A stretch of DNA of 21,605 nucleotides from a virus (Duplodnaviria; Heunggongvirae; Uroviricota; Caudoviricetes), in the IMG/VR virus record IMGVR_UViG_2681813318_000014; one strand, written 5' to 3'. How positions within the stretch are numbered: the first letter of the stretch is position 1; the number at the start of each line of letters is the position of its first letter. Positions 1 to 14,349 of the stretch are shown piece after piece. Below the pieces are notes generated by a model. The model was not told the origin of the DNA and ran no database searches. It saw only the letters and a list, made by a program, of their open reading frames with translations. The translations under genes were made by a program, and so were the position numbers.

Positions 1-186
1 TTAGTTTGTTTTACCATCATCAATCGTAATTGTGATTTCATATTTGAAAAGCTTAATGCTGAAATTGAAGCGTGTACTTTTGGCGATAATCATTTTTAAA
101 AGCTGATACACCAGAAGCACCAGAAACACAAAGCAACCTAAGCTTGCGAATCTGTGAGATTCAGCAATTGTTTCAAGAAAGCCCAT
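1..186 (-). CDS. small predicted membrane protein (61 aa), divergent from the RHH regulator gene
   Basis: ATG at 186 with AAGGGG RBS about 6 nt upstream; hydrophobic stretch LGCFVFLVLLVYQLL; stop at 1-3; own consensus-like promoter (237-265, minus strand). Confidence 0.35.
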   Translation of the reverse strand: MGFLETIAESHRFASLGCFVFLVLLVYQLLKMIIAKSTRFNFSIKLFKYEITITIDDGKTN

Positions 187-236
187 TAATTCCCCTTATT
201 TATCAAAGGGAATGACCTGTATCAGCCCCTGTAACC

Positions 237-287
237 ATAATATCATGTAAATGAGATGTTGACAATATGTTAAATAAATGTTAAGAT
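237..287. promoter_or_regulatory. divergent face-to-face sigma70 promoters with overlapping -35 boxes
   Basis: Plus strand: TTGACA 259-264, 17-bp spacer, TG-n-TAAGAT 279-287 (extended -10), driving the 323 gene. Minus strand: TTGTCA (complement of 260-265), 17-bp spacer, TATTAT (complement of 237-242), driving the 1..186 gene. Confidence 0.45.
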
Positions 288-322
288 TGTAGTATGAGTA
301 AGAGATTTAAGGAGATTTTACA

Positions 323-613
323 ATGACTCACACAGTTACGCGCCTTTTGCCAGAGGCATTTGAACGACTGGCAGCAATCAAAGCCAAATATCCCGATATG
401 AAGCACACAGCGCTTGTTGGGGAGATTTTAAAAGAGTCGGTAAACCTTAGCCCTTTCGATAACGTTAAGGGCGTTGCAGAGGGTTCTAAGGCCATCAGAA
501 TCACAACAGGCCAACTGGAACTACTCAAAGCACAGTCCGCAGTAGCAGGCTGCTCAATGATTCAGGTCTTGAGCGATAAGGTTTGCAAGCTTGCTGATAA
601 ATTGGAGGTTTAA
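323..613 (+). CDS. putative DNA-binding regulator with two ribbon-helix-helix-like repeats (CopG/Arc/Mnt type), 96 aa
   Basis: ATG 323 with AAGGAG 8 nt upstream; two segments with beta-strand-then-two-helices pattern (TRLLPEAFERLAAIKAKY... and IRITTGQLELLKAQSAVAGCSMIQVL); stop TAA overlaps next ATG (TAATG). Confidence 0.55.
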   Translation: MTHTVTRLLPEAFERLAAIKAKYPDMKHTALVGEILKESVNLSPFDNVKGVAEGSKAIRITTGQLELLKAQSAVAGCSMIQVLSDKVCKLADKLEV

Positions 614-999
614 TGTATGACTTTTATAAACATCGTGACCATTTGGTAAGATTTGACGGTAGAGTCTGGAAAGACATAACAGAAACCAATAAACCCAAGT
701 TTACCCACCAGCAATTAGCCTCAAGATTTGATATCTGGACTGAAGCACAAAAAGATAATGGTGATTTCGAGTTTATCAGGGGTTTTGATTATGCTTACGA
801 AGACGACCTTAAAGACGCCATTAAATTAATTGAAAATTTTAATGGAAATAATTCTGGTGACAAACACAAAGCCAATGGTAATCGGTATGACAGGGAGTTA
901 ATTCTTGATGCCATTTCCAGAGGTCAATCACAAAGTTATATTTCTGAGAAATACGGTTTATCACGCAGTCAATACTACAAGATTAAAGCGTCTGTGTAA
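613..999 (+). CDS. hypothetical protein with C-terminal helix-turn-helix (128 aa)
   Basis: ATG 613 overlapping upstream stop, GGAGG RBS at 604-608; C-terminal DRELILDAISRGQSQSYISEKYGLSRSQYYKIK resembles recombinase/terminase-small-subunit type HTH. Confidence 0.5.
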   Translation: MYDFYKHRDHLVRFDGRVWKDITETNKPKFTHQQLASRFDIWTEAQKDNGDFEFIRGFDYAYEDDLKDAIKLIENFNGNNSGDKHKANGNRYDRELILDAISRGQSQSYISEKYGLSRSQYYKIKASV

Positions 1000-1136
1000 G
1001 CCTGTGAGAATGAGTGAGACTCAAAGATGAGCTACCCTATTACTAAGGTGTCTCACTCCCTCTGTAACCCGCATGGTTACTGGCCTCAGAATGGCTATTT
1101 TGGCAGATTTAAGATGTGTTTTAGAGGAATTTAAAA

Positions 1137-1460
1137 ATGAATAATCACCCAATGCAAATTTTCGTTGATAACGACACCGCTATGATGATTCAGGCTTTCA
1201 CTGATGTAGGTGTTAGCATTGACTTTGATAAGTTGTTAGAGTTAATGGCTGATAATGCGGAAAGCATCTCTGACTTTATTCACTCGGTGGAGTTTAACGA
1301 GCCTCGAATGATGCTACCAATTAAAGACAGCAACATGAAAAGATTGGTTATCGAGCAAACGAACAAATACAGCGTTAGCCCTGAAAAATATCTCAAGGCA
1401 GCTATAGCAATTTTGTACAGCGATAATATTCTGGTGACGGATTCGAAGGTGGTGCATTAA
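1137..1460 (+). CDS. hypothetical protein (107 aa)
   Basis: ATG 1137 with GAGGAA RBS 7 nt upstream; no recognisable motif. Confidence 0.5.
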   Translation: MNNHPMQIFVDNDTAMMIQAFTDVGVSIDFDKLLELMADNAESISDFIHSVEFNEPRMMLPIKDSNMKRLVIEQTNKYSVSPEKYLKAAIAILYSDNILVTDSKVVH

Positions 1461-1537
1461 TGGGTTTAATAATTGCTTGGACGCTGTTAGGGTTATTTGT
1501 TGGTTGCTGGATGGGTAACACAGTAAATAAGAATTGA
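1460..1537 (+). CDS. possible 25-aa hydrophobic peptide (MGLIIAWTLLGLFVGCWMGNTVNKN)
   Basis: ATG overlaps the upstream TAA (TAATG); AAGGTGG-like RBS 7 nt upstream; single transmembrane-like segment; below the ORF-track size cutoff. Confidence 0.3.
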   Translation: MGLIIAWTLLGLFVGCWMGNTVNKN

Positions 1538-1561
1538 TGTTACCAATCTGTTAAAAAGCTG

Positions 1562-1590
1562 TTGACAAATAACCTTAAACATGACATAAT
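1562..1590 (+). promoter_or_regulatory. near-consensus sigma70 promoter (TTGACA-17-CATAAT with TG extension)
   Basis: TTGACA 1562-1567, 17-bp spacer, TGaCATAAT 1582-1590; followed by AGAGAG/CTCTCT hairpin at 1610-1626 and about 430 nt without an ORF before the 2023 gene. Confidence 0.45.
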
Positions 1591-1760
1591 TTTAATTATA
1601 GAGAGAATTGCTCTCTTATTTCTTTCAACAATTCCATCTACATCTAGGGATAGTTATTCTGAAAGGTGCAATGCTTTTCGCTACATGGCCTATTTAGCCC
1701 ACTAGATAGGCTATATATCAAAAAGTGCTTAATCATTCATTATTGAACCCTTACAGCTTT

Positions 1761-1788
1761 GCCCTAATCATGAGTTAGGGCTTTCTTT
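1761..1788 (+). terminator. intrinsic-terminator-like hairpin
   Basis: GCCCTAA (1761-1767), 7-nt loop, TTAGGGC (1775-1781), then TTTCTTT. Confidence 0.4.
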
Positions 1789-1857
1789 AAGAGTTTTTAA
1801 ACAGAGCTTTTAAAGAAAGTTTTTCCTGAAACTTCGTTAACGTTAAAGCAAACCTTC

Positions 1858-1901
1858 AAAGCCCTTCACAGATAAGGATGAACCTATGTTTAGGGCTTTT
1901 T
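1858..1901 (+). terminator. second terminator-like hairpin in the leader
   Basis: AAGCCCT (1858-1864) pairs with AGGGCTT (1891-1897), followed by a T6 run; the loop is long (about 26 nt), so the structure may be more complex. Confidence 0.3.
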
Positions 1902-2022
1902 TCAGCTTTTAAAAAGCATACTTGGCAAACCGCCTTTTAAGCCTCTTCTAAGTTTAGATAGGCTGTCAGGTGTGCTTTTTAAAAACTGAAACATAAATTA
2001 TCTTAGAAGAGGAAAAATAATA

Positions 2023-2727
2023 ATGTCTATCCGTGATGAACATGAAATGATTATCGAAAACAAACCAAGTGCACTTGATATTCACGAATTAAGTTTGCGT
2101 GAATCTTTTGATAGAGCTTGGCGGGAATCACACGAAGTAAATAAAGGTCCATATATTCCACCAGAACCACTCGAGATTCCAAGAGTTGAAATTGATTTTT
2201 CTATGAACGAACGGTGTGAACTTGATTTGAAGTTGAAGCTACAACGCCGATATTTCCAAGCTATTAAAGACTCTCAAGAAGCAATGAGAAGTGTTTACGA
2301 GAAAATTCAGTCCAAGCTTGAAGACGAAATTGACGAAATGGCTATTTTGATGGAGCTTCAAACCAATTCTTATGCTTATTTCTCTCGACTAGACCGTGAC
2401 GGTTGGGGGTATGACCCTGTAGAGATTGGTAAAGTGATTGCAGATTTACCAGAAGGTCAAAGAGTTGTTCGTACAGAAAGAGCCATTAGAGCGCCACATC
2501 GACTGTCTCTAATTGTTGCTGATAAATCACAAGCTGAGCTTGAAGAAATTGCCAAAGAGAAACTGATGAAAGCAAGAGAAAATGAGATTAATTTGCTGAA
2601 ATCAAGACTGGCTAAGCTGATTAGTGACCATCAAGCGCTGGCTAAGGAGTACCGTCAAGAGTTGGCACAGATTATCAGCTTCAATGATTTTCTGAGTGTT
2701 CCACGAGAATTTAGCAAGGCTGTTTAA
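2023..2727 (+). CDS. hypothetical protein, charged/helical (234 aa)
   Basis: ATG 2023 with GAGGA RBS; composition rich in E/K/R/L suggests coiled coil; no recognised motif. Confidence 0.55.
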   Translation: MSIRDEHEMIIENKPSALDIHELSLRESFDRAWRESHEVNKGPYIPPEPLEIPRVEIDFSMNERCELDLKLKLQRRYFQAIKDSQEAMRSVYEKIQSKLEDEIDEMAILMELQTNSYAYFSRLDRDGWGYDPVEIGKVIADLPEGQRVVRTERAIRAPHRLSLIVADKSQAELEEIAKEKLMKARENEINLLKSRLAKLISDHQALAKEYRQELAQIISFNDFLSVPREFSKAV

Positions 2728-2749
2728 TTATGCATATGTGAGGTGATGA

Positions 2750-2965
2750 ATGATTGATTTAACAGAACGCTATGAAACTATTCGGTCTGTTTGTGAAAAC
2801 TTAAAGTTACAAACTAAACCAGCCTTAAGAATTAAAAGCAAACATCAAATTATCACCTCACGCAAACCAAAAACACGCAAGATTCCAAAGTGGTGTATCG
2901 ACCGTATCCCTTCCGATGCTCAAATTATAGGTGAAACGGAACTACATTATCTTGTCAGGCATTAA
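2750..2965 (+). CDS. small basic hypothetical protein (71 aa)
   Basis: ATG 2750 with GAGGTG RBS; K/R-rich. Confidence 0.45.
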   Translation: MIDLTERYETIRSVCENLKLQTKPALRIKSKHQIITSRKPKTRKIPKWCIDRIPSDAQIIGETELHYLVRH

Positions 2966-3062
2966 AAAAGAATGGTTGGGTGTATGAGATAGGTTCTATC
3001 GAATCTATAACACGGGGAGAGATTATCGAGTGATATCGGTAGTTTCTCCCTTTTTTGTATGT

Positions 3063-3129
3063 GTGCTACGTGAAATCTTCTGAACAGATATACCCACCAA
3101 AAATTATTTTTTACGTAGCTCACGCTTAA
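3063..3129. repeat. about 65-bp conserved element, copy A, immediately upstream of the tape-measure-like gene
   Basis: CTACGTGAA...ATACCCAC-CAAAAATTATTTTTTACGTAGCTCACGCTTAA; a 32-bp core is identical to copy B at 5326-5392; contains the internal inverted repeat GCTACGT...ACGTAGC about 41 bp apart. Confidence 0.6.
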
Positions 3130-3147
3130 AGAGGTGAAAAAATATGA

Positions 3148-5316
3148 ATGGCACAATTTAAAGTTGATGATTTTCTGATTGAGTTAAGTTTTAACTCTCA
3201 GAAAGTTTTAAAAGGCTTGGAAAAAGCCGAGAAACAAACGATGCAGGTAGCATCACGAATTGAGAAGCGATTGAATAAAGCTTTTAAAGTTAACCCTACG
3301 CCTTTAAATGATTCTCTCAAGGTCATGGAAAGAAATGTCGATAAAACTGTTTCCAAGATTGAGCAGCGTCTTAAAAACACTAGAGTGTTTAAGATTAAAA
3401 CGGAAATTGAGGATACTTTAAAGCCACTTAGACAACCAAGACAGCCACGAATTAGCGGCAACAGAGCAATCACAGCAGCTTACTCAGCGAATATGAGCAA
3501 GCTAAAAGGCTTTGACCCTATTTTGCAGAAATACATCAAATCTCAGTTTTACGGGCTATCTGCTAAAGCCGGGTCAATGGATAATTCAAAATTCAATGAG
3601 AAGCTGGCTCAGCTAAATGCTTCAGTCAGAGAAGCAATTGCTAAAGCTAAAGGTCATACATCCACCAGCATTAATAATACAAGCGACGCATTTAATAATC
3701 TTGCAAGCAATGCAATTAAGTTATCTGGTGCATTTTACTCTGTGATGGGTGCTCTTAACGCTTACAAGGCCATTATGAATGCAGGTCTTAAACGAGATTC
3801 CGCACAGAGAGCCGCTAAGTTTGTACTTGGTGATAAAGCATCTGAGGCTGAAACATTTATCAGGGGACTGGCTGACAAGACAGGTCTTAATATCTCTGAA
3901 GGGCTATCAAGCTACGCTAAGTTTGCAGCAGGTGCTCAGGGTTCTATGTCACAGGAACAGACACAGGAGCTATTTGGTAATGCAACGGCTATGAGTCGCT
4001 TAATGGGGCTTAGTAATGATGAGCTAAACGGCATTTTGAAAGCTTTTGAGCAGATGGCTTCTAAGGGCAAGATTCAGGCTGAAGAATTACGTGGGCAGTT
4101 AGGTGACCGTATGGCTGGTGCATTTAAGCTATTCGCTGAAGCACTGGGTATGACTGCTACAGAGCTTGATAAAGCGATGAAAGACGGGAAGATTTTAAGT
4201 AGTGATACTCTCCCTAAAGTCGCTAAACAGATGGGCTTGATGATTGATAAAGCGGGTGGCTGGGCTGAAGTCGCTAAGAGCACCCAGACAGCTTTAGGTA
4301 AGTTAGCAAACAACTGGGATGATACGATGGTGAAAATCTTCTCAGGTTCACAGGATGAGCTAAACGGCTTCTTATCCAGCCTGAGTAACCTGCTTAGTGA
4401 AATGGGGATGAGTTCTTCTATCGCTGGTGATGCTATCGGTGGGCTTATCGACATGCTTAAAGCTGGTGTAGATGATATTCGCGTATTCAATAACACCATT
4501 GAAGGCTGGATTTTACAGGTTAAAAAGTTCTATTACAGCCTTGATGACACTAAACGAAAACTACTTGATGAAGTCGGTGATGGTTTTATCAATTTTGTCA
4601 AAGGTCTTGCTATAGCGTTATCTGCAAAGACGCTATTCAGTGCCACTACAGGGGTTATGAACCTGACAAGAGCAATCACAACGTTAGGTACAAGAGCTAA
4701 TCAGGTGGCTGGTCAGGTAGCTACTGGTAAAGGTGGTGAAAAACTGAAAGGTGTAGCTGGTGGTGTAGGTAGTGCTCTTGCAATTGGTTATGCTGATGAC
4801 GGTTATGAAACAGCGTTAGCATTAGCTTCAATGATTCCACAAATCAGAGGTGTCACCCTTGGTTTATATGCATTGAAGAAAGCACTGGATTTTATGAATC
4901 AGGAAGTAGTCAAAAACGCTAACATGCATCCATCTGGGGTAGGTGTGGGTAGTGACTTTAATCCTGTGTATTCTGGTGACCCTAATAAACCGAATATGAT
5001 TAATGAAGGGTGGATTAAAATTTTTAGTTCAATGGGTGAATTGTTTAACAATGCCACAATGAATATTGCAAGATTCAATCATCCAGAATTAAACAACATT
5101 AAGCAAGAAGCATCACTAACCAGCGCAGATATTCAAAGTCTGAGGGATGAAATCTCTGCTTTAAGTAAGCGTATTCAGGAGCCTGTGAAAGTTTCACTTG
5201 GTGGTGAAGTTGCCATTAAACCAGATGAAACATCGTTTATGACCTTTAGCGGTAATATTTACGACCAATACGCAGAAGCTACGCTATTAAGTTCATCATT
5301 TCCAGAAGATGATTGA
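3148..5316 (+). CDS. tape-measure-domain protein (phage tail length tape measure-like), 722 aa
   Basis: Segment LKAFEQMASKGKIQAEELRGQLGDRMAGAFKLFAEALGMTATELDKAMKDGKILSSDTLP matches the conserved tape-measure motif as recalled from memory; central Gly/Ala-rich hydrophobic segments; GAGGTG RBS upstream. Confidence 0.7.
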   Translation: MAQFKVDDFLIELSFNSQKVLKGLEKAEKQTMQVASRIEKRLNKAFKVNPTPLNDSLKVMERNVDKTVSKIEQRLKNTRVFKIKTEIEDTLKPLRQPRQPRISGNRAITAAYSANMSKLKGFDPILQKYIKSQFYGLSAKAGSMDNSKFNEKLAQLNASVREAIAKAKGHTSTSINNTSDAFNNLASNAIKLSGAFYSVMGALNAYKAIMNAGLKRDSAQRAAKFVLGDKASEAETFIRGLADKTGLNISEGLSSYAKFAAGAQGSMSQEQTQELFGNATAMSRLMGLSNDELNGILKAFEQMASKGKIQAEELRGQLGDRMAGAFKLFAEALGMTATELDKAMKDGKILSSDTLPKVAKQMGLMIDKAGGWAEVAKSTQTALGKLANNWDDTMVKIFSGSQDELNGFLSSLSNLLSEMGMSSSIAGDAIGGLIDMLKAGVDDIRVFNNTIEGWILQVKKFYYSLDDTKRKLLDEVGDGFINFVKGLAIALSAKTLFSATTGVMNLTRAITTLGTRANQVAGQVATGKGGEKLKGVAGGVGSALAIGYADDGYETALALASMIPQIRGVTLGLYALKKALDFMNQEVVKNANMHPSGVGVGSDFNPVYSGDPNKPNMINEGWIKIFSSMGELFNNATMNIARFNHPELNNIKQEASLTSADIQSLRDEISALSKRIQEPVKVSLGGEVAIKPDETSFMTFSGNIYDQYAEATLLSSSFPEDD

Positions 5317-5325
5317 TTTAACGGT

Positions 5326-5392
5326 GTTCTACGTGAATAAAGCAAAGTTAATACCCACACCAAAAATTATTTTTTACGTAGCTCACGCTTAA
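5326..5392. repeat. about 65-bp conserved element, copy B, immediately upstream of the 5473 gene
   Basis: CTACGTGAA...ATACCCACACCAAAAATTATTTTTTACGTAGCTCACGCTTAA; same core and same internal inverted repeat as copy A. Confidence 0.6.
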
Positions 5393-5472
5393 CAGAGAAA
5401 ACACTTATATATCAAAGGCTTGGTTAAAAATGATTAAAATACACTAAGCCTTTGAAATCAAAGGAGAATTTA

Positions 5473-6261
5473 ATGATTTTTAGCAATCAAATCCGCTACA
5501 GTGGCAAAGATGGCATCTATTTCCACTTAAGAGATAATGTAGATGCCTTCTTAACTTTATCAGCTACTGAAAACATGGAATTTGACAGCCCTATGCAGGT
5601 CACTACACAAAACATGCAATCAGGGCAAACCGTCACAGATAATGTGCAAAGAGCACCCAGAACAATCACTATTAGTGGTGTCGTTGTAGTTGGCTATGAA
5701 GGGAGCTTATTATTAACTCGTCAGGGCCAGTTAGTAGAAAACTTCATCGACACTCTTGAAAGCTGGAGAGACCAGAAACAAATTATTTCAGTGATTTGTA
5801 AAGATGGTATCAAGATTGATGACTCAATTATTACCAACTTTAAAGCCTCTAAAGATGTTACTATCTCTAACGGTCTTCGTATCCAGCTAACTTTTCAGGA
5901 AATTAACTTCAAAGCCGTTGTGGGTCAAACTGATATTTCAGCAGCAACTGGAAAGACCGCTACTACAAATGATGGTGGTGTGACCAGTAAGAAGAATGCA
6001 GGTAACGTGACCACTGAACGCAATAACGCGCCTATGCTATCGTGCAAAGAGTTAATGAGTATTAACGATGTATCCGGTTACGCTCCAGCTATCAGAAATG
6101 ATATTCTCGATGCTCAGATTAAATGTAATAAGGCTTGGAAGCTGGATTATTCAGACTTAACAGAAGCTGAAAAAACCAACGTCACCAATGCTAACAGTAA
6201 CGCTGGTCGAGTAGCTTCAAAGCTTAAAAAGTACTCAGTGAACCCTCACAAAAAATACTAA
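5473..6261 (+). CDS. hypothetical beta-rich protein (262 aa), possibly a distal tail component
   Basis: ATG 5473 with AAGGAG 6 nt upstream (the track start at 5452 is a TTG with no RBS); position directly after a tape-measure gene; functional call is by position only. Confidence 0.5.
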
Positions 6262-6303
6262 ATCTCTACTACATCAACATCTATTAAACCCCTCTCAGTG
6301 ACT

Positions 6304-7782
6304 TCAGAAAGCGACTGTATAGCCTCTGTAACGTTGTCTGAGGGGTTTTCTGTTATTGGTAGGGTGGATTGACTTACTATTGTGAAAAGTTACTTTACAG
6401 CGACGTTTAGCAGTATTTAAAACGACCTCTTTAACAGCACTTTTGATTATCAGTTGTGCTTCAATCCTTCCCGCCTTTGTAGTCAAGTCACAATCAGACA
6501 AACACCCCACATCAATAGATTTAAGGCGTTGTGTCTCCTTCTCGATATCCGCATCAACCTGTGATAGCTCACCTTTTAACTGTTTTAGTTTGCTGGTAAT
6601 AGCGGACAAGTCTTCAATTTCAAGTGATAGCTGTACCAGCTTTTCAATATTGCTTGAGATGTGTTCACGGTGTAGCCTCAACATATCTATGGTATTCGTC
6701 ATATCGCTATCAAATCGGTCAAGACGAGATAGCAGGGTAAGTAATGTACCATCGGTTTGCTTACGTGACAGCCCTTTAGCACTACAACGGTTTTCATTAC
6801 GAAGAGGACAACGATAAATCCCGCTTCTTGTATCGCTAAAGCCTGTGATAATCAAAGCATGACCACATTCAGAACAACGGATAACACCTTTAAAGAGATT
6901 CACACTCAATGGTTTATCTGAAACAGGTTTTCTTCCATAACGAGAATATGATAGTTGCTGGACTTTGTAGAAATCAGTCTCAGGGATGATAGAGGGGAAA
7001 TAACCAGTTATCTCCTCACAGCCTTTAGGTGTGAAGTAACCAATTACAGAGCGATTCTTCAGAAGGTCTTGCACTGAGGTTTGACCAAACTTACCCGCTT
7101 TATATTGGTTAAGTGTCTGGTGACCTTCATCATTAAGAGTCCTGACAATCTCCCAGATAGACTTACCCTCTAACCGTAGCTGAAAGCACCTCTTCACAGT
7201 CTCCACTTTCTCAGGTATCACAGAGAAGCTTTTACGGTCATCATTCAGCCTTAACCATGCAGGACAACGCTTAGAAATCTTGATACCTTCAGAGATGAGT
7301 TCTTTTTTACGGTTCCATGCAGCTTGTATACGCTCAGACTTCCTCAAACTCTCCTCATGCGACCGCTGCATTATCAGAATGCTTTTAATCAGAGCTAACG
7401 GGTCTTTAAGAGATTCCCTTGTGTAATGTTCACCATCGGACAAGGTGACTACATCTACACCAGAGCGAAGAATGTTTCGTAATAGCTCACTTGCTCGGTC
7501 TACGTTCTGGCGTGACAAACGGTCAAGAGATTCTATCAAGAGCGTATCACCAGCTTTAACAAGCCCTTTCTCGATAGCGGTTAAAAAGTCACCTAAGCCA
7601 CCTTTCAAGTGCTTACCAGTAAACCCGCTAACGCCTAAATCACGGAAGGATAAATCTTGGTCAAGGTAGTACTCAGGATGAGCCTTAAGCCAGTCATTAA
7701 CCATCTTAGACTGTCTGCGTAGTGAATCACCTCGGGATTGCTTCTCAGATGAAAACCTGATGTAAGAAATGGCACGTTTCAT
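6304..7782 (-). CDS. large serine recombinase (integrase/resolvase family), 492 aa
   Basis: N-terminal resolvase-type catalytic region with Ser in AISYIRFSSEKQ; long recombinase domain; Cys-rich zinc-ribbon-like segment CSECGH...CP; C-terminal coiled coil; GGTGAGGTG RBS; at the edge of the AT-rich block next to chromosomal DNA. Confidence 0.85.
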   Translation of the reverse strand: MKRAISYIRFSSEKQSRGDSLRRQSKMVNDWLKAHPEYYLDQDLSFRDLGVSGFTGKHLKGGLGDFLTAIEKGLVKAGDTLLIESLDRLSRQNVDRASELLRNILRSGVDVVTLSDGEHYTRESLKDPLALIKSILIMQRSHEESLRKSERIQAAWNRKKELISEGIKISKRCPAWLRLNDDRKSFSVIPEKVETVKRCFQLRLEGKSIWEIVRTLNDEGHQTLNQYKAGKFGQTSVQDLLKNRSVIGYFTPKGCEEITGYFPSIIPETDFYKVQQLSYSRYGRKPVSDKPLSVNLFKGVIRCSECGHALIITGFSDTRSGIYRCPLRNENRCSAKGLSRKQTDGTLLTLLSRLDRFDSDMTNTIDMLRLHREHISSNIEKLVQLSLEIEDLSAITSKLKQLKGELSQVDADIEKETQRLKSIDVGCLSDCDLTTKAGRIEAQLIIKSAVKEVVLNTAKRRCKVTFHNSKSIHPTNNRKPLRQRYRGYTVAF

Positions 7783-7832
7783 TGTTCACCTCACCTAATA
7801 ACCCCTAGATTGTATCGCTTTAGGTGGTGTAT

Positions 7833-8234
7833 TTAAACGTGTCTAATAAAAATCACCCGATTAACGCCGCGCTGATGTAAACCGCGATTAAGCGTTTGTT
7901 CCTCTTCCCCTTTGGCGAAAAACTGTGGATGGCGGACTTCCACACCATAATTAAATTCGCCAGGGAGAGAATCGAGAAAATGCCAAAGCGCAGGCAGCTC
8001 CCGTGGGCCGAATGTGGCAGGCAGTTGCAGCCAGTATTGCCCAATGCGCGGAGCCAACGGTGACATGCGGGTCAAAAATTCAGTCACTAAATCATCGCAA
8101 TGTCGTAATGCTGCCTGATGCGAAATGGTCGCCGGAAACTTAAAACAGAAGCGGAAGTCATCTGTGGTCTGTTCACGCCAGCGCAGGACAACCTCGGGTT
8201 TCGGCAGGGCGTAAAGCGTGGTGTTGCCCTCCAC
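7833..8234 (-). pseudogene. yecE: fragment of a chromosomal DUF72-family gene (consistent with yecE), missing both ends
   Basis: GC-richer composition than both flanks; sequence CVEGNTTLYALPKPEVVLRWREQTTDDFRFCFKFPATISH fits the conserved DUF72 N-proximal pattern as recalled; no native start (frame open into the integrase 3' end); only about 133 codons versus roughly 270 expected. Confidence 0.5.
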
Positions 8235-8260
8235 GCAGTTAACATGACGGGTATTAAGGA

Positions 8261-9574
8261 TTAACTTACTGATTTTAATAAGCCTCTGGTGTCACTTTGG
8301 TGACTATGGGGCATCATTGGGACATAATCTGTCAGCTTCTGATTCAGCATTGCGATCTGTTCTGCATTGCTGTCAGTCATCCATGCTCCGTATACATTGA
8401 ATACCATCTGGGCACTTGCATGGCCCATCTGGCTGGCAATGAAGCTTGGGTTTGCTCCGGCAGATAATGACCAGCACGCATAAGTGTGTCGTGACTGGTA
8501 TGCCTTTCGATGCCTGATCCCTGCACGCTTAATGGCTGTTTCCCATGAGTCACCTACAGAATCGACTTTGTAGACAAAACCTACCTGTTCGCTTTTTCTA
8601 ACCACTTGAGGGTTAAACACGAAAGTACATTCATGGTTCACTGAACGTCCATATTCACGTAGTTGCACCTTGATGTTGTACTGCTTACCCAGTCTTGTCA
8701 TTTCAGCCTGATTTTTCAGGACACTGATAGCGGGCTGGATAAGGTGCACAACCCTGTTTGTGCTTGCTTCAGTTTTCGGTAGAGTGAACTCACCAAGTTT
8801 CGTATAATTGCGCCTGATGGTAATTGTTCCTGCCTTCAGATCGATATCTTCCCAGGCCAGGGAGACCAGTTCACCGTGACGCATTCCTGTGTACACAGCC
8901 AATGACCACAGGTTTTTCGTCTGCTGATGTCGGCAAGCATCTATCAGGCGAATAAATTCGTCACGAGTTAGCGGATCTGGCTCTGCCCTGGCTCTTTTAA
9001 GAGGCTTAATTCCCTGGAAGGGATTTGCTTCTAAGTAACCGTGATCTGCAGCAAACTGAAACATTCCAGCGATTGTCGTCATGTAATAATTTACAGTAAC
9101 GACGCTCCGTCCTTTTGCTGCTGCTTTGTTTTTCGTTGAATTCTGATACCCGGTAAGCAAATCTTTCCTGATATACAGCAATTCCTCTTTGGTTACCGAT
9201 GACACCAGTCTACTGCCTCCAATTTTCGGAACCATCGTTCTTGCAACGGATTCATAGCGATTGAATGCATTTGCAGAGATTTCCATTCGTTTCAGATCCA
9301 GCCACTTTTCTTCAAGTTCCTTCACCGTAATTTCTTTTTTACTTACCCCAAAAGCCTGAAGGTTGGGGGAGTCAGGGAACTGTGCAGCATAATCAAAGCT
9401 TCCTGTGCGGATGGCAAAACATACTGATGTCCGCAGTTCCCCGGCGATCTTCCTGTTCTTGGCAGTGTCAGGGACACCAAGATTTTCCCTGACACGTTTA
9501 CCGTTAAAATTAAACCAGATGCGTAATGTGCCGCCGTGGTTTTCGACGCCTGTTGGATATTTGACTTTATCCAT
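8261..9574 (-). CDS. int: phage tyrosine integrase (437 aa)
   Basis: C-terminal catalytic-region residues consistent with a tyrosine recombinase (AYQSRHTYA..., ...VYGAWM); N-terminal arm-type domain; GGAGGT RBS; immediately downstream of an excisionase-like gene on the same strand. Confidence 0.85.
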   Translation of the reverse strand: MDKVKYPTGVENHGGTLRIWFNFNGKRVRENLGVPDTAKNRKIAGELRTSVCFAIRTGSFDYAAQFPDSPNLQAFGVSKKEITVKELEEKWLDLKRMEISANAFNRYESVARTMVPKIGGSRLVSSVTKEELLYIRKDLLTGYQNSTKNKAAAKGRSVVTVNYYMTTIAGMFQFAADHGYLEANPFQGIKPLKRARAEPDPLTRDEFIRLIDACRHQQTKNLWSLAVYTGMRHGELVSLAWEDIDLKAGTITIRRNYTKLGEFTLPKTEASTNRVVHLIQPAISVLKNQAEMTRLGKQYNIKVQLREYGRSVNHECTFVFNPQVVRKSEQVGFVYKVDSVGDSWETAIKRAGIRHRKAYQSRHTYACWSLSAGANPSFIASQMGHASAQMVFNVYGAWMTDSNAEQIAMLNQKLTDYVPMMPHSHQSDTRGLLKSVS

Positions 9575-9629
9575 CGATACCTCCAGACGCCCAAGAGCGA
9601 TACGAGCTTACATATTTCATGATATTAAA

Positions 9630-9866
9630 TCACCTGGGTTGTTTGTTTTTCATTGAGGCGACCCAGGCATCTATTGCTTTTCTGTTATACATACATTCAC
9701 TGGAAGGCTTTGGATTACCGTCTGGTGATACGTGAATATACTCTCTTCCAACCATCCAGCATTCTTTCCGGGCCCGAAGAATTGTGCCTGGTTTGAGCCC
9801 GGTAATTGCGATAAGAACGCTTTCACAAACCCATTCATTGGGAGCCAGTTGAATCACATTGCCCAT
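9630..9866 (-). CDS. xis: excisionase-like protein (78 aa)
   Basis: Small basic protein directly upstream of int on the same strand; TGAGG RBS; resembles the lambdoid-prophage excisionase-like family from memory. Confidence 0.55.
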   Translation of the reverse strand: MGNVIQLAPNEWVCESVLIAITGLKPGTILRARKECWMVGREYIHVSPDGNPKPSSECMYNRKAIDAWVASMKNKQPR

Positions 9867-9874
9867 GTATTACC

Positions 9875-10021
9875 TCACACAACACTCAGCCCACGGCAGT
9901 GGCACCACACTTCAAACATTCGCTTCACAACTTCACGACAGTAGAAGCCGTCAACATCTCGCGTCAGGTCATAGCGATTGCCGTAACGCTGGTGGACCCA
10001 TCGTTCAAATGCTTTATTCAT
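9875..10021 (-). CDS. possible small protein (48 aa), below ORF-track cutoff
   Basis: ATG at 10021 with AGGAAG RBS 7 nt upstream; begins 4 nt after the upstream gene's stop; its stop lies 8 nt before the xis ATG. Confidence 0.3.
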   Translation of the reverse strand: MNKAFERWVHQRYGNRYDLTRDVDGFYCREVVKRMFEVWCHCRGLSVV

Positions 10022-10024
10022 TCT

Positions 10025-10267
10025 TTACTTCCTTTTTATGGCTCGTAATTTTTTCAGGTGCTTTTCCTGCTCAGTGTCCGCGAGAATTTTGCGGTACTCC
10101 TGGTGGTCAATATGTTCGAACAGGCAGTTTAACTCACCAATGCGTACCCGCCCGGATCGTCCGTCCATCCGTCGAAAGAACACTGAGTGCTCAGTGATGC
10201 GAGTAATCACCACGGGGTATCCGGCTCTGTCCGTGTATATCTGACCGCGTTGAATCAAAGCGAACAT
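10025..10267 (-). CDS. hypothetical phage protein (80 aa)
   Basis: ATG 10267; sits in the tightly packed early-left operon. Confidence 0.5.
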   Translation of the reverse strand: MFALIQRGQIYTDRAGYPVVITRITEHSVFFRRMDGRSGRVRIGELNCLFEHIDHQEYRKILADTEQEKHLKKLRAIKRK

Positions 10268-10271
10268 GTGG

Positions 10272-10355
10272 TTATCCCCAGCGGCAAATCGAATACACCA
10301 TCAGCGTCACCGCCATCGCAATTCCTACCGTTGTTAATGCTTCAGGCCAGGTCAT
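10272..10355 (-). CDS. possible 27-aa hydrophobic peptide ([27 protein letters not shown])
   Basis: ATG overlaps upstream stop (ATGA at 10352-10355); GGAGG RBS 10 nt upstream; single transmembrane-like segment. Confidence 0.3.
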
Positions 10356-10696
10356 CGTAAAATATCCTCCACGCTTATCAGTCCGTTCCGCTCCAGATAA
10401 CTCATCGCCTTATCCGGTAATTTGCAGTCTGGCTTCGCTTTCCTCAGTTGCCAGGTTAACTGCTTTACCAGCATGGTTAACTCATCGACCAGACGCTGAT
10501 ATCCCACTGGTTTGTATTCATGCAATTTACCGGCTGGCTCTGCTGCCAGCGATACCAGTGCGATTTCCAGAACAGCAATATCCATCTTATATGTGCGGAT
10601 GATGTCATGGTCGATTGTACCCGGTATGCACAGTCTCTGTGCTTCAATAGTCTCCTCTGCGTGAGCTATTAACTGCTCTCTGGTAAAAGTCGTCAT
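10352..10696 (-). CDS. hypothetical phage protein (114 aa), paralog of the next gene
   Basis: ATG 10696 in ATGA overlap with upstream stop; AAGGGG RBS; shares the [10 protein letters not shown] motif and a 29-bp DNA repeat with 10693..10878. Confidence 0.55.
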
Positions 10697-10878
10697 GCCG
10701 TAGCCCCTTCTTGATATTTTTCAAACCAGAACACAACCGGCTCTGCTTCCAGCGATACCAGTGCAATTCGTGCCAGTTCTTCCGCTTCTTCTGCTGGCAG
10801 TACAACGTTGCTACCCGGTCCGTATGTTTCGCGCCACTGCTTGATTGTCAGCAGTCGCCCTTTGGTAATAGTGATCAT
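10693..10878 (-). CDS. hypothetical phage protein (61 aa), paralog of 10352..10696
   Basis: ATG 10878 in ATGA overlap; AAGGAA RBS; motif [10 protein letters not shown]. Confidence 0.5.
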
Positions 10879-11390
10879 GCCGCGTTTCCTTCTTTCTTAT
10901 TAACAATCACACCGTCATATATTTCATTAAGGTGCCCTCTCAACTCCATGCGCCTTAATGCAGATAACATGTAATCGCATTCAACCTGCTTATTCCCAGT
11001 AAATGGCTTATCGTCAGGATTACCCCAACAGCAATTACCCCTGGGCCATCCATGTACTTTCCGTACTCTTCCGTTAACAACGTGAAGTAATCCCCAGCCG
11101 GGAGGTAAATCCTCAACTGAAATAATTTCCGGCTCACTAATAAAGAATCGCCAGTCGCCCATGCCAAGTGAGGGATTTTTACGGAAACGCTTTTTTCTAT
11201 CTGCCAACAAGTCAGCACGAGAACACTTCGCCTCTATCAGGCATGATGCTGAATTTCTGAATCCCATAGCATCTGGCTGTTCTCCGGTACTGGTTACAGC
11301 AACAAAGCGGTCATGAAAGCAAACCTTGAACCCGTTGCGCTTAAGGAACTTGTACGCAATCTGACAGAGTTCGTGGTGTGTTAACGCCAT
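10875..11390 (-). CDS. putative PD-(D/E)XK nuclease, MmcB-like (171 aa)
   Basis: Start moved to ATG 11390 (AAGGAG 6 nt upstream; track start 11423 is TTG); motif DAMGF...CLIEAKCSRADLLAD...DWRFFISEP fits the D...E-x-K nuclease core of the MmcB-like family as recalled. Confidence 0.55.
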   Translation of the reverse strand: MALTHHELCQIAYKFLKRNGFKVCFHDRFVAVTSTGEQPDAMGFRNSASCLIEAKCSRADLLADRKKRFRKNPSLGMGDWRFFISEPEIISVEDLPPGWGLLHVVNGRVRKVHGWPRGNCCWGNPDDKPFTGNKQVECDYMLSALRRMELRGHLNEIYDGVIVNKKEGNAA

Positions 11391-11391
11391 A

Positions 11392-11877
11392 TCACTCTCC
11401 TTTGATGCGAATGCCTGTTGCAATGCTGTTTATGATGCTGTCAGTGCATGGGGTAGAAAGCTGGGCATCTCCAGCAATTTTCATGACCTCAACATCTGCA
11501 TATCGAATACCGAGGTGTATCAGACCGGCTATGCCTGACTTAAGCCGAGCATTTTCCATAAATAGAACTTTTGCCCGCTGTTTTTCTGCTTCAAGCTCAA
11601 CGCGCAGCTTCCCTACCGTTAGCGCAATATCCTCGTTCTCCTGATCGCGGCTTTTGATGTATTGCAGGTTTCTTTCCCGTTCATCCAGCAGTGCCAGCAC
11701 GGTTTCTGGTCCGGTCAGAAATTTGAAGGCGTTGAGCGCATCAATATCCACACCGTAATCTTTAAGTTCCTGTTCACTTAACAAGTCATCATCAGCTGGC
11801 AACATTAACAGGCGTTCCATTGCTGGAATTGCACGTTCCGCCACCTCACGCAGTGCCTGGTAATTAATTTCGCTCAC
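11392..11877 (-). CDS. Ea22-like early protein (161 aa)
   Basis: GTG start at 11877 with AAGGAGG RBS 6 nt upstream; N-terminus MSEINYQALREVAE is characteristic of the Ea22-like family in lambdoid phages; GTGA overlap with upstream stop. Confidence 0.55.
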   Translation of the reverse strand: MSEINYQALREVAERAIPAMERLLMLPADDDLLSEQELKDYGVDIDALNAFKFLTGPETVLALLDERERNLQYIKSRDQENEDIALTVGKLRVELEAEKQRAKVLFMENARLKSGIAGLIHLGIRYADVEVMKIAGDAQLSTPCTDSIINSIATGIRIKGE

Positions 11878-12380
11878 TGGTTGCCTCCTTTGCGAAGCTG
11901 GGCAGCAAAGTCAACTAACCACTCAGTCATTTCAACCTTCCCTACCAGGTCTGAACCAGGGTACATACAGCAATCACTCTGCGCCGCTTTGAAATCCTTA
12001 TACTCATATTCTTGGGCCACCAGATTTTTTGCAGCTTCTATAGCAGCGTCCACCCCCTGCGCCCGGACTTCAGCCAGGAAAGCATCAGTGGTTGGCGTTT
12101 CAGGTATCTGTCTCCTCATCCGTTCTATTGCATGATTGAACCCGAAGTCTTCCGCGAGAGATACGTCATCCATATTGTCATTGTCATCCTCAATATCCCG
12201 TGATTCTGGAATTGCAGACTTTATTCCCGCATTCTCCGCTGCCAGCGCCGCGCACTTGGCCTCAAGAGCGGCAACCACTTCCTGATGGTCTTTGTACTTA
12301 ACGTATGAGCCGGAGATGTCATCACCTTCGGTGTTTAGCCATGCGTCATTGCAATTCACTGCGTAGGTTCTGATGCTCAT
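11874..12380 (-). CDS. acidic hypothetical phage protein with coiled-coil segment (168 aa from the internal ATG)
   Basis: ATG 12380 with GGGAGAG RBS, in ATGA overlap with the stop of 12377..12559; the track's longer 208-aa version begins at an upstream ATG without an RBS. Confidence 0.5.
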   Translation of the reverse strand: MSIRTYAVNCNDAWLNTEGDDISGSYVKYKDHQEVVAALEAKCAALAAENAGIKSAIPESRDIEDDNDNMDDVSLAEDFGFNHAIERMRRQIPETPTTDAFLAEVRAQGVDAAIEAAKNLVAQEYEYKDFKAAQSDCCMYPGSDLVGKVEMTEWLVDFAAQLRKGGNQ

Positions 12381-13369: not shown

Positions 13370-13379
13370 GTGGTCCCTT

Positions 13380-13961: not shown

Positions 13962-13966
13962 GATAT

Positions 13967-14155: not shown

Positions 14156-14157
14156 TA

Positions 14158-14271
14158 TTATCTCCCGTATGCTTTACGCAGAAATAAGCAGGCAATATGC
14201 ATGTAATTTTCACCGTATTGTGCAATAAGGCAGGCGGTCTTGTGTGATGCCATATTCTTTATAAAAGTCAC
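14158..14271 (-). CDS. possible 37-aa ORF in the 195-bp intergenic region
   Basis: GTG start with AGGAGG RBS 7 nt upstream; stop overlaps the RBS of the next gene; weak. Confidence 0.2.
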   Translation of the reverse strand: MTFIKNMASHKTACLIAQYGENYMHIACLFLRKAYGR

Positions 14272-14346: not shown

Positions 14347-14349
14347 TTG

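What the first reader, a model, noticed from the sequence alone, without database searches (positions are those of the whole stretch)
3063..5392. Same ~65-bp element with internal inverted repeat precedes two consecutive genes
Copies at 3063-3129 and 5326-5392 share a 32-bp identical core (CAAAAATTATTTTTTACGTAGCTCACGCTTAA) and a 6-7-bp inverted repeat (GCTACGT...ACGTAGC) with arms about 41 bp apart. Each copy ends about 20-80 bp before the start codon of the tape-measure-like gene and of the next gene. This looks like a shared activator-dependent promoter/operator or an RNA-level regulatory structure; a cassette-boundary recombination site is a less likely alternative.
Basis: seen in the sequence. 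Interest (0 to 1): 0.5.

Follow-up and report, generated by a model that had tools for sequence, protein, structure and literature searches.

The report
Repeated promoter driving stolen phage-tail genes
The repeated ~70-bp element is most likely a promoter-plus-operator module that a small, apparently undescribed E. coli chromosomal island places in front of each of two tail genes it shares with virulent Felix O1-like phages, so it may be the switch through which the island interferes with or exploits those phages.

Summary
In detail: two copies (3063-3129, 5326-5392) share a 32-bp identical core, with 0 of 100 shuffles matching.

They lie in an AT-rich ~11-12 kb island inserted in yecE and bounded by a large serine recombinase. 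A lambdoid prophage sits next to it. The element precedes only two genes, both homologous to Felix O1-like lytic phage genes: a tape-measure gene and a Dit-like baseplate gene. In the phage these genes abut with no spacer.

Across 67 unique copies from related islands, the columns left free by the search show an invariant T-A-n-n-n-T (five hexamer variants) and an A-tract, but no -35 match. Fixed 47-nt spacing separates two inverted boxes, GCTACGTGAAA and TTTYACGTAGC. The arms show no compensatory changes, the RNA hairpin is weak, and Rfam has no match.

Copy 1 sits exactly between a strong intrinsic terminator and the RBS. It is cleanly absent in a Citrobacter island and partly deleted in another E. 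coli island.

The element is absent from the phage genome and from 50,697 phage records. It occurs in 434 of 5,426 complete E. coli genomes, always intergenic.

Best reading: an island-specific, -35-less, factor-dependent promoter flanked by operator boxes. The regulator is unidentified. I found no published description of the island family.

The parts
3014..3057 (+). Strong intrinsic terminator (16-bp stem plus T-run) ending the upstream orf234-orf71 operon, immediately 5' of copy 1
   Evidence: terminator scan; fold -25.8 kcal/mol, z = -4.7, 0 of 200 shuffles as stable
3061..3133 (+).
   Evidence: Empty site in Citrobacter locus L012. Internal-deletion remnant in E. coli L001.
3065..3075 (+). 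Upstream box O1, GCTACGTGAAA (about -52 to -42 from the predicted start; ACGT centre at -47.5)
   Evidence: CTACGTGA is present in all copies. It was a search anchor in the metagenome set, but it is also conserved in the loci found independently.
3088..3103 (+). Conserved spacer features: ATA (3088-3090), CAC (3095-3097) and an A-tract (3100-3103)
   Evidence: these columns were left free by the search pattern and are conserved in 75-100% of the 67 unique copies
3105..3110 (+). Candidate -10 hexamer TATTTT
   Evidence: T-A-n-n-n-T in all 67 unique forward copies, as TATTTT, TAGAAT, TAGATT, TAATTT or TAGTTT
3109..3119 (+). Downstream box O2, TTTTACGTAGC, the inverted copy of O1. It overlaps the 3' end of the -10 and the predicted start site (A3117).
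   Evidence: The start site is inferred from -10 geometry and has not been mapped.
3117..3129 (+). Conserved predicted initial transcribed sequence AGCTCACGCTTAA
   Evidence: It is partly a search anchor; C+8 and C+10 were free and are about 97% conserved.
3148..5316 (+). Tape-measure protein gene (722 aa; RBS GAGGTG at 3132-3137)
   Evidence: TMP_3; phrog_4036; 39% identity to the phage tootiki tape-measure protein over 307 aa, 58% over the first 50 aa
5324..5398 (+).
   Evidence: This is the commoner position: 99 of 146 classified copies precede the Dit-like gene.
5404..5463 (+). Stable hairpin in the long 5' leader of the Dit-like gene. Its 3' arm CCTTTG could pair either with CAAAGG at 5412-5417 or with the CAAAGG of the Shine-Dalgarno region. 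It is absent from short-leader variants in other islands.
   Evidence: I13; z = -3.3, 0 of 200 shuffles; two leader-length classes
5473..6261 (+). Dit-like 'baseplate' gene. Residues 13-190 are nearly identical to the gene that follows the tape-measure gene in Felixounavirus; the C-terminus has diverged.
   Evidence: Dit_like, E = 6e-20; 74% identity overall; 90% nucleotide identity over 519 bp
2750..2965 (+). orf71, a small basic orphan protein encoded just upstream. It is the only non-tail gene found in essentially all islands that carry the element, which makes it a candidate cognate factor by inference only.
   Evidence: 47 of 48; family restricted to Escherichia, Citrobacter and Shigella, all annotated hypothetical; no fold match
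6304..7782 (-). Large serine recombinase at the island's right end, followed by the yecE (DUF72) fragment at 7833-8234
   Evidence: Resolvase + Recombinase + Zn_ribbon_recom; DUF72; yecE is split in L001

Best explanation
Each copy is a self-contained transcription-initiation module belonging to the island. It has a sigma-70-type -10 hexamer (TATTTT at 3105-3110 and 5368-5373) preceded by an A-tract, and no usable -35. Two inverted copies of an 11-bp box bracket it: GCTACGTGAAA centred near -47, and TTTYACGTAGC overlapping the -10 and start site. RNA polymerase is predicted to start near A3117 and A5380. This gives the tape-measure mRNA a leader of about 30 nt, and the Dit-like mRNA a leader of about 30 or about 90 nt.

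Because there is no -35, firing should require a factor, or relief of one, acting through the two boxes. The same protein could activate from the upstream box, repress at the downstream box, or both. The module lets the island express its two phage-derived tail genes together and independently of the upstream operon, which ends in a strong terminator.

Shown: the repeat, its conservation pattern, its exclusive position before these two genes, its modular presence or absence, and its absence from the phage genome.

Inferred: promoter activity, the start site, dependence on a factor, and the identity of that factor. The candidates are orf71, the only gene that always co-occurs; the HTH protein at 613-999; or a protein of the infecting phage.
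For: 1. Repeat significance: 0 of 100 shuffles.

2. Conservation: among 67 unique forward copies gathered from IMG/VR, a GTDB genome and metagenomes, the region left free by the search anchors shows T and A invariant, three variable positions, then T. Five different hexamers occur. An invariant A-tract lies upstream, and O1-to-O2 spacing is 47 nt in 102 of 103 sequences.

3. The generic sigma-70 scan finds two canonical promoters elsewhere in the island (259-287 and 1562-1590) but does not call the element, because it has no -35.

4. Copy 1 lies between an intrinsic terminator (z = -4.7) and the RBS.

5. All 146 classified copies precede either the tape-measure gene (47) or the Dit-like gene (99), and never another gene.

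6. In the phage the two genes abut with no spacer, so the module is an island addition.

7. The module is gained or lost as a unit: a clean empty site in Citrobacter L012 and a deletion remnant in L001.

8. The arms show no compensatory substitutions, and ten haplotypes each break a pair at +5 or at -39. This fits protein sites rather than a stem.

9. The element is in 434 of 5,426 complete E. coli genomes, with a median of 2 copies, always in unannotated DNA and never on plasmids. This tracks the roughly 480 genomes that carry the island.
Against: No transcript 5' end, reporter or binding data exist, so promoter activity is inferred from sequence alone.

The last T of the proposed -10 overlaps the downstream box. 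Only the T-A dinucleotide and the A-tract are therefore independent of the inverted repeat.

The most strongly conserved stretch (ACGTAGCTCACGCTTAA) would be transcribed, and a promoter model alone does not explain that.

An upstream box centred at -47.5 does not match the classic activator positions (-41.5, -61.5, or Mu's -43.5).

The 45-bp centre-to-centre spacing of the boxes is about 4.3 helical turns, which is not ideal for looping.

No island protein could be tied to the boxes. orf96 and orf128 are missing from about half of the islands, and orf71 has no recognisable DNA-binding fold.

The metagenome set was fetched using parts of the element as anchors, so conservation of those anchor positions is circular.
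Confidence: 0.6

Rival explanations
1. Helper-phage-responsive promoter. The module is a promoter, but the factor that fires it is made by the infecting Felix O1-like phage rather than by the island. The island's tail genes would then switch on only during infection, as happens in PLE and SaPI-type satellites.
For: Both driven genes are homologues of Felixounavirus tail genes. The Dit N-terminal 519 bp is 90% identical at the DNA level. The island's left arm also carries two short stretches of phage non-coding DNA. No island regulator is universally present apart from orf71, whose function is unknown. PLE activation is known to depend on the helper's transcriptional programme (PMC13595925, abstract).
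Against: None of the element's boxes is enriched in the tootiki genome. The 18-mer with up to 3 mismatches gives 0 hits. CTACGTGAA occurs only 3 times, all inside genes, and TACGTAGC not at all. The regions upstream of the phage's structural operons show no similar architecture. BLAST of the element against 50,697 phage records finds nothing. A phage activator would therefore have no matching sites in its own genome. Only one Felixounavirus genome was scanned in detail.
Confidence: 0.2
2. RNA-level element. The inverted repeat folds in the mRNA into a stem with a loop of about 35 nt. This would apply above all to copy 2, which is read through from the tape-measure gene. The stem would act as a processing, stability or translational signal.
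For: The arms can pair over 9-11 bp, and the predicted minimum-energy structure is that hairpin. There is no terminator between the tape-measure stop codon and copy 2, so both arms of copy 2 would be present in a read-through transcript.
Against: The stability is marginal: z = -2.3 and -1.3, with 4 and 19 of 200 shuffles folding as well. No compensatory change appears in any of 14 tested pairs across 59 haplotypes, and substitutions at +5, +6 and -39 break pairs. Rfam gives no match even at E <= 1. Copy 1 follows a terminator, so its upstream arm would rarely be transcribed. Complementarity to a possible island sRNA is no better than chance (z about 0).
Confidence: 0.08
3. DNA recombination site. 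The directly repeated modules flank the tape-measure gene and would allow its excision, exchange or capture as a cassette. This could happen through a site-specific recombinase acting on the inverted boxes, or through homologous recombination in the manner of T4-type PeSL cassettes.
For: The island encodes a large serine recombinase. The element has terminal inverted boxes about 57 bp apart, comparable in size to serine-integrase att sites. Sub-modules of the element reassort freely between the two positions and between islands. Copy 1 shows presence/absence polymorphism. Identities of orf71, the tape-measure gene and the Dit-like gene are uncoupled between islands.
Against: The island's own junctions with yecE share nothing with the element. 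The conserved module extends beyond the inverted boxes on the 3' side (TCACGCTTAA), and no target-site duplication flanks the filled site relative to the empty site. Boundaries of blocks with at least 96% identity between this window and 90-odd related loci are not enriched at the element: 4 of 144 at copy 1 and none at copy 2. Two identical sites in direct repeat are not substrates for a serine integrase, by established knowledge of that family.
Confidence: 0.07
4. Constitutive weak promoter with no dedicated regulator. The conserved boxes would be hitch-hiking sequence from a recent duplication rather than functional sites.
For: Many copies are closely related, and gene conversion between the copies could by itself keep them alike.
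Against: Between O1 and the conserved ATA...CAC block, the spacer differs at most positions among the three spacer types. The boxes and the 47-nt spacing stay fixed throughout, including in a Citrobacter island whose Dit protein is only 65% identical. Selective conservation of this kind is not what a neutral duplicate would show.
Confidence: 0.05

Closest known systems
Activator-dependent late promoters of temperate phages and their satellites (Mu Plys/PI/PP/Pmom with C and Mor; P2/P4 late promoters with Ogr/Delta)
   Same: They have a recognisable -10 and no functional -35. A conserved symmetric site lies upstream of where the -35 would be. The same promoter type is repeated in front of several morphogenetic operons. 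For P4, a satellite uses the promoter type to control tail and head genes.
   Different: The box sequence (GCTACGTGAAA) and its position (centre about -47.5) differ from Mu (dyad at -43.5; PMC4461284 for C) and from P2 (TGT-N12-ACA at -55, from my own knowledge). A second, inverted box overlaps the start site, which those promoters lack. No Mor/C or Ogr homologue was detected in the island.
PeSL cassettes of T4-type phages (composite promoter plus stem-loop motifs flanking shuffled genes; PMC2839356, PMC4122927)
   Same: Both are short composite regulatory motifs containing a promoter and an inverted repeat. Both are repeated at gene boundaries and are present or absent as a unit between close relatives.
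   Different: PeSLs are early sigma-70 promoters coupled to terminator-like stem-loops, and they occur many times per genome in hyperplastic regions. This module has no -35, its inverted repeat brackets the promoter rather than following it, there are only one or two copies per island, and breakpoints were not enriched at it.
[quoted passage not shown]
   Same: Both are small chromosomal islands with a large serine recombinase. Both are linked to a virulent myovirus rather than a temperate phage, and PLE transcription is tied to the helper's programme (PMC6002521, PMC13595925).
   Different: There is no sequence homology to PLE. This island carries its own tape-measure and Dit-like genes, which to my knowledge is not a described PLE feature. 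Excision, replication and packaging were not tested here.
Tail-assembly interference defences (Tab, PMC10884400; Tai, PMC11364771)
   Same: The idea is the same: a chromosomal or mobile-element gene product targets phage tail assembly.
   Different: Those proteins are not homologues of tail structural proteins. Here the candidate effectors are near-copies of the phage's own tape-measure and baseplate-hub proteins. PADLOC models detect nothing in the island except an orphan methyltransferase.

Membership tests
Canonical sigma-70 promoter | -10 hexamer with T-12, A-11 and T-7 | tested here: met
   TAnnnT in 67 of 67 unique forward copies, as five hexamer variants
Canonical sigma-70 promoter | -35 hexamer resembling TTGACA, 16-18 bp upstream of the -10 | tested here: not met
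   The consensus scan does not call the element. Copy 1 has TGAACA at 18 bp, copy 2 has AAAGTT, and the region is variable among copies.
Canonical sigma-70 promoter | Mapped primary transcript 5' end 6-8 nt downstream of the -10 | not testable with these tools
   No transcript data are available. A3117 and A5380 are predictions.
Mu C/Mor-type or P2 Ogr-type late promoter | -10 present, -35 absent, conserved upstream symmetric site | tested here: met
Mu C/Mor-type or P2 Ogr-type late promoter | Family-specific activator site (Mu: dyad centred at -43.5; P2: TGT-N12-ACA centred at -55) | tested here: not met
   The box is GCTACGTGAAA, centred at about -47.5. No TGT-N12-ACA lies at the right place (sequence read directly).
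Mu C/Mor-type or P2 Ogr-type late promoter | Cognate activator gene (Mor/C family, or an Ogr/Delta zinc-finger protein) in the element | tested here: not met
   Pfam, NCBIfam and PHROGs give no such hit for any island ORF. orf71 has two Cys, not four.
PeSL-type mobile regulatory cassette | Composite promoter plus inverted-repeat motif repeated at gene boundaries, polymorphic between relatives | tested here: met
PeSL-type mobile regulatory cassette | Recombination breakpoints concentrated at the motif | tested here: inconclusive
   4 of 144 block boundaries at copy 1 and none at copy 2. Few loci are at least 96% identical to the window in this region. Sub-modules of the element do reassort.
Structured cis-regulatory RNA | Base pairs maintained by compensatory substitutions, or a match to a curated family | tested here: not met
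   No compensatory change, and pairs are broken in 10 haplotypes each at two positions. No Rfam match at E <= 1. z = -2.3 and -1.3.
Serine-recombinase att/res site | Similarity to the sites the island's recombinase demonstrably used (the island-yecE junctions) | tested here: not met
   The junction sequences in L001 and in the window share no CTACGT or ACGTAG box with the element
Host-wide intergenic repeats (REP/BIME, ERIC) or MITEs | Many copies dispersed around the chromosome; MITEs also have target-site duplications | tested here: not met
   1-5 copies in 434 of 5,426 genomes, tracking the island. No duplication at the filled site compared with the empty site.
Phage satellite of PLE/PICI type (context) | Integrative island with its own recombinase that carries genes or sites derived from a specific helper phage | tested here: met
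   Serine recombinase and split yecE. Tape-measure and Dit homologues plus two non-coding stretches shared with Felixounavirus. Other island genes have no phage homologue.
Phage satellite of PLE/PICI type (context) | Helper-dependent excision, replication and packaging, or interference with the helper | not testable with these tools
   Requires infection experiments

The most novel reading that the evidence does not exclude
The module is the infection-responsive switch of a previously undescribed family of E. coli, Citrobacter and Shigella islands, present in about 8-9% of complete E. coli genomes. These islands would parasitise or block virulent Felix O1-like phages by producing their own tape-measure and baseplate-hub (Dit-like) proteins. 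The Dit-like protein has a phage-identical N-terminal domain and a divergent C-terminus. It could therefore enter the helper's tail-assembly pathway and either poison it, which would be defence, or re-purpose it for the island's own spread. That would be a satellite or defence strategy based on counterfeit tail-core proteins under a dedicated promoter.
Probability: 0.3. Interest if true: 0.8.

Novelty: new variant of a known kind. Interest (0 to 1): 0.5.

Why it matters
Taken alone, a repeated promoter is ordinary. Its interest comes from what it drives and where it sits.

A compact integrative island is found in roughly one in eleven complete E. coli genomes. It has equipped near-copies of two tail-core genes of a virulent phage with its own -35-less promoter, a promoter that does not occur in the phage. 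How Felix O1-like phages time their transcription is unknown (PMC3185647). Satellites of virulent coliphages are barely documented.

If the module responds to infection, it offers three things. It is a compact, testable handle on how an island senses these phages. It is a possible new interference mechanism based on decoy tape-measure and Dit proteins. It is also relevant to phage therapy and Salmonella/E. coli biocontrol, where Felixounaviruses are in use.

If the module turns out to be constitutive or silent, the result is simply a well-delimited island promoter.

Tried and rejected
1. Borrowed phage promoter. The element was BLASTed against 50,697 phage records with no real hit. The 18-mer with up to 3 mismatches, and every box, were scanned in the complete tootiki genome with no enrichment. 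The phage's late-operon upstream regions were read directly and show no similar architecture.

2. Known RNA family. Rfam at E <= 1 gave no match in 1-7900 apart from an unrelated weak hit inside the recombinase gene.

3. RNA stem. Folding z-scores are weak and there is no covariation.

4. Target of an island sRNA from the 1590-2022 non-coding region. Duplex energies equal those of shuffles.

5. Recombinase site or crossover hotspot. There is no similarity to the att junctions and no breakpoint enrichment.

6. Host-wide repeat or MITE. The distribution tracks the island, and there is no target duplication.

7. orf71 as a tape-measure chaperone homologue. It shows no similarity to either phage chaperone.

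8. Identifying the regulator. For orf128, single-sequence AlphaFold2 gave low confidence except for a C-terminal three-helix HTH, and PDB sequence search gave only a marginal resolvase-HTH hit. For orf96 there were no hits; its apparent tandem ribbon-helix-helix pattern is my reading of the sequence only. For orf71 the model has pLDDT 77 but Foldseek against PDB finds nothing below E = 0.4.

9. Defence-system models. PADLOC detects only an orphan methyltransferase.

10. Motif resemblances I considered and dropped as weak or inconsistent across variants: sigma-54, sigma-32, MotA box, CRP, LexA, DnaA box, NarL heptamer, IHF, and T7-like promoters. These were judged by eye and not scored.

11. 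Literature. No paper in the searchable library describes this island or a Felix O1 satellite.

Self-correction: my Dit query was one base out of frame. It still matched through DNA similarity. One search repeats the co-occurrence analysis in frame, and only its numbers are used here. The gene classification was in frame.
Full report
**1. The observation**

The window holds two + strand copies of a roughly 70-bp element. The 32-bp core CAAAAATTATTTTTTACGTAGCTCACGCTTAA lies at 3098-3129 and 5361-5392. With up to three mismatches allowed there are exactly two matches, and none in 100 dinucleotide-preserving shuffles. The repeat finder lists it as the second-largest direct repeat in the window.

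Each copy has an inverted repeat. In copy 1, GCTACGTGAAA (3065-3075) faces TTTTACGTAGC (3109-3119). In copy 2 the first base of the upstream arm is T.

Copy 1 ends 18 nt before the tape-measure start codon (ATG 3148, giving MAQFKV..., the same N-terminus as the phage protein). Copy 2 ends 80 nt before ATG 5473 of the next gene.

**2. Where it sits**

The window is a composite.

- Positions about 8230-20460 are the integrase-to-replication arm of a lambdoid prophage, 97% identical to phage PhiR49_2 and related to Stx phages that integrate in yecE.
- Positions 1 to about 7800 are a different element at about 38% G+C.

In E. coli 2011C-4315 the whole of this second element can be seen (locus L001). 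It is an island of about 11-12 kb that splits yecE (DUF72). From left to right it contains:

- a non-coding arm
- an orphan adenine methyltransferase
- an HTH protein
- several small ORFs
- the tape-measure gene
- a 'phage baseplate protein' gene
- a convergent large serine recombinase

Only two island genes have phage relatives.

- The tape-measure protein is 39% identical over 307 aa, and 58% over the first 50 aa, to that of the Felix O1-like lytic myovirus tootiki.
- The Dit-like protein is almost identical to the phage protein over residues 13-190 and then diverges. At the DNA level it is 90% identical over 519 bp.

The other island proteins have no family. orf234 has no homologue in any of 50,697 phage records. 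The island is therefore not a decayed Felix O1-type prophage.

In tootiki the tape-measure gene and the next gene abut (coordinates 7221/7221 in L002), and the tape-measure gene directly follows its chaperone genes. The spacers that hold the element are island additions.

The island's left arm lies outside the window. It also contains 58 bp (88%) and 49 bp (82%) that match two non-coding regions of the phage genome.

Related islands occur in about 480 of 5,426 complete E. coli genomes. They are very mosaic and always chromosomal.

**3. Comparative anatomy of the element**

An exact search for the 18-mer in IMG/VR returned seven contigs. A protein-guided scan of GTDB genomes added a Citrobacter and a Shigella island. 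A degenerate pattern scan of metagenomes returned 111 stretches. That pattern was anchored on CTACGTGA, ACGTA and GCTTAA and left everything between the anchors free.

In total 146 copies could be classified by the gene that follows. Of these, 47 precede a tape-measure gene and 99 precede a Dit-like gene. None precedes anything else.

The 67 unique forward copies give this consensus:

tgCTACGTGAa-(8 variable)-A....ATA....CAc..AAAA.TAnnnTT.ACGTAgctCACGCTTAA

The distance from the first box to the second is 47 nt in 102 of 103 sequences.

In the free region, the hexamer at window 3105-3110 / 5368-5373 is TATTTT, TAGAAT, TAGATT, TAATTT or TAGTTT. T, A and the last T never change, while the three interior positions do. 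This is the signature of a sigma-70 -10 element. It is preceded by an invariant A-tract.

Nothing resembling a -35 is conserved 16-18 bp upstream. The consensus scan finds two good promoters elsewhere in the island (259-287 and 1562-1590) but does not call the element.

Sub-modules reassort between the two positions and between islands. These are three spacer types, five hexamers and two variants of the downstream box.

**4. Modularity**

Copy 1 lies exactly between a strong intrinsic terminator and the tape-measure RBS. The terminator is at 3014-3057 (-25.8 kcal/mol, z = -4.7).

- In the Citrobacter island the same terminator is followed directly by the RBS (...ctcccttttttgtat|GAGGTGAAAAAATATG), which is a clean empty site.
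- In E. coli 2011C-4315 only ...TGAA|CAC-TTAAGAGGTG remains, which looks like an internal deletion of the module.
- In a Shigella island an IS3-family element has inserted within the -10 region.

Among 48 islands with enough sequence, 30 have one copy and 17 have two. Those loci were selected through the element itself.

For an unbiased count I searched complete E. coli genomes with the element alone. It is in 434 genomes at 667 places, with a median of two per genome, never on plasmids and always in unannotated DNA. The copy before the Dit-like gene is the commoner one. The copy before the tape-measure gene, present in this window, looks like a secondary duplication. It frees that gene from dependence on read-through of the terminator.

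**5. Stem or two sites?**

As RNA the inverted repeat folds only marginally better than shuffles: z = -2.3 and -1.3.

I tested 14 candidate pairs across 59 unique haplotypes and found no compensatory change. Ten haplotypes carry G to C at +5, ten carry A to T at -39, and several carry C to A at +6. Each of these breaks a pair with no matching change in the partner. Only the YACGTR core is invariant, which is uninformative.

Rfam has no match. A possible sRNA from the 560-bp non-coding region at 1460-2022 is no more complementary to the shared leader than chance.

The arms therefore behave as two independently conserved, oppositely oriented copies of one 10-11-bp site. That is what protein-binding sites look like.

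**6. Whose promoter?**

None of the boxes is enriched in the tootiki genome, and the regions upstream of its structural operons look different. The whole element is absent from the phage collection. The 2010 Felix O1 genome paper states that the phage encodes no RNA polymerase or known specificity factor, and that its temporal control is unknown (PMC3185647). So the module is not a copy of a helper promoter.

These are 323-613, which I read as a possible tandem ribbon-helix-helix, and 613-999, which has a C-terminal HTH.

orf71 (2750-2965), the gene just upstream of the terminator, is present in 47 of 48 islands. It is a small basic protein of an orphan family restricted to these islands. The model has an N-terminal helix, a basic linker and a small beta-alpha-beta-beta domain (pLDDT 77). 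It has no significant structural neighbour and no similarity to the phage's tape-measure chaperones. Its candidacy as the cognate factor rests on co-occurrence alone.

**7. Most likely mechanism**

The module is an island-specific promoter that host RNA polymerase recognises through its -10 and A-tract. It lacks a -35 and so depends on a factor acting at the upstream box (centre about -47.5). The downstream box overlaps the -10 and the start site, where the same or another protein could repress. Transcription should begin near A3117 and A5380.

I put about 0.6 on 'promoter/operator module'. Within that, I am roughly evenly uncertain whether control is by an island protein or by a product of the infecting phage.

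Weak points of this reading:

- The last T of the hexamer is shared with the downstream box.
- The best-conserved stretch would be transcribed.
- The box position fits no classic activator geometry.
- There are no transcript data.

**8. Comparison with known systems**

In function the module resembles the -35-less, activator-dependent late promoters of Mu (C/Mor) and P2/P4 (Ogr/Delta). It fails their membership tests: the box sequence and position differ, and no cognate activator gene is present.

In form it resembles T4-type PeSL cassettes (PMC2839356, PMC4122927). It lacks their -35 and their terminator arrangement, and recombination breakpoints are not enriched at it.

The island as a whole most resembles the Vibrio PLEs in organisation: a large serine recombinase and a link to a virulent myovirus (PMC6002521, PMC13595925). 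There is no homology, and mobility is untested.

Tail-assembly interference defences (Tab, Tai; PMC10884400, PMC11364771) are a conceptual neighbour for what the two gene products might do.

I found no description of this island family in the searchable literature. That library is incomplete.

**9. Verdict**

The promoter/operator interpretation is the best supported. The RNA-structure and recombination-site alternatives are disfavoured.

The element is a new variant of a familiar kind of regulatory module. Its interest lies in the undescribed island that uses it to express counterfeit tail-core genes of Felix O1-like phages.

Noticed in passing
L001 9567-9614 and 9650-9707 (island left arm, outside the window; the window starts at about L001 12001): Two short stretches of the island's non-coding left arm match non-coding regions of the Felixounavirus tootiki genome: 49 bp at 82% to 53936-53984, and 58 bp at 88% to 46276-46331, next to the divergent gene 57/58 region. 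The second includes a small palindrome (GATATCC..GGATATC). These may be mimicked phage cis-acting sites such as an origin, a packaging signal or a regulatory site.
   Followed up: partly
window 1460-2022: A 560-bp non-coding stretch with the best sigma-70 promoter match in the island (TTGACA-17-CATAAT, 1562-1590). It also has terminator-like hairpins at 1600-1616 and 1761-1781, and a 28-nt inverted repeat at 1900-1991, all upstream of orf234. It could be a long regulated leader or one or more small RNAs. I tested only its complementarity to the element's leader, which was negative.
   Followed up: partly
window 5404-5463: The long leader of the Dit-like gene forms a stable hairpin (z = -3.3). 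Its 3' arm CCTTTG could pair alternatively with the CAAAGG of the Shine-Dalgarno region, which suggests a translational switch. Other islands have a short leader of about 20 nt with no hairpin.
   Followed up: partly
window 7833-9574: Tandem occupancy of one gene. The island's right junction leaves a yecE (DUF72) fragment at 7833-8234. A lambdoid prophage integrase gene (8261-9574, minus strand) starts about 25 bp later. So two unrelated integrative elements, with a serine and a tyrosine recombinase respectively, sit back to back in yecE.
   Followed up: partly
L013 8331-8337 and 13359 (Shigella flexneri SFBU1023); L007: An IS3-family element with terminal sequence TGAACCGCCCCGGG... is inserted within the element's -10 region (AAAAATAG|...|TAGAATTTACG). 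This should inactivate the promoter. The two halves lie about 5 kb apart, so a further rearrangement is likely.
   Followed up: no
L012 7045-8846 (Citrobacter sp. ANG330): The island's tape-measure gene is split by two minus-strand ORFs of 340 and 259 aa, which look like an IS21-type pair. Several E. coli islands also have IS2/IS3/IS66 insertions in or near the tape-measure gene (annotations). Inactivation of this gene appears to recur.
   Followed up: no
window 11829-11893 and 12511-12575: A 65-nt direct repeat at 83% identity, 682 bp apart, in the lambdoid prophage on the minus-strand early-gene side. Each copy ends in ...CCTCCTTTGC and spans what look like gene starts read on the minus strand. 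It is unrelated to the finding.
   Followed up: no
window 323-613: The 96-aa product appears to contain two consecutive ribbon-helix-helix-like motifs (TVTRLLPEAFERLAAIKAKY... and IRITTGQLELLKAQSAVAG...), so it may be a single-chain pseudo-dimer. This is my reading of the sequence. Pfam, NCBIfam and PDB sequence searches gave no support.
   Followed up: partly
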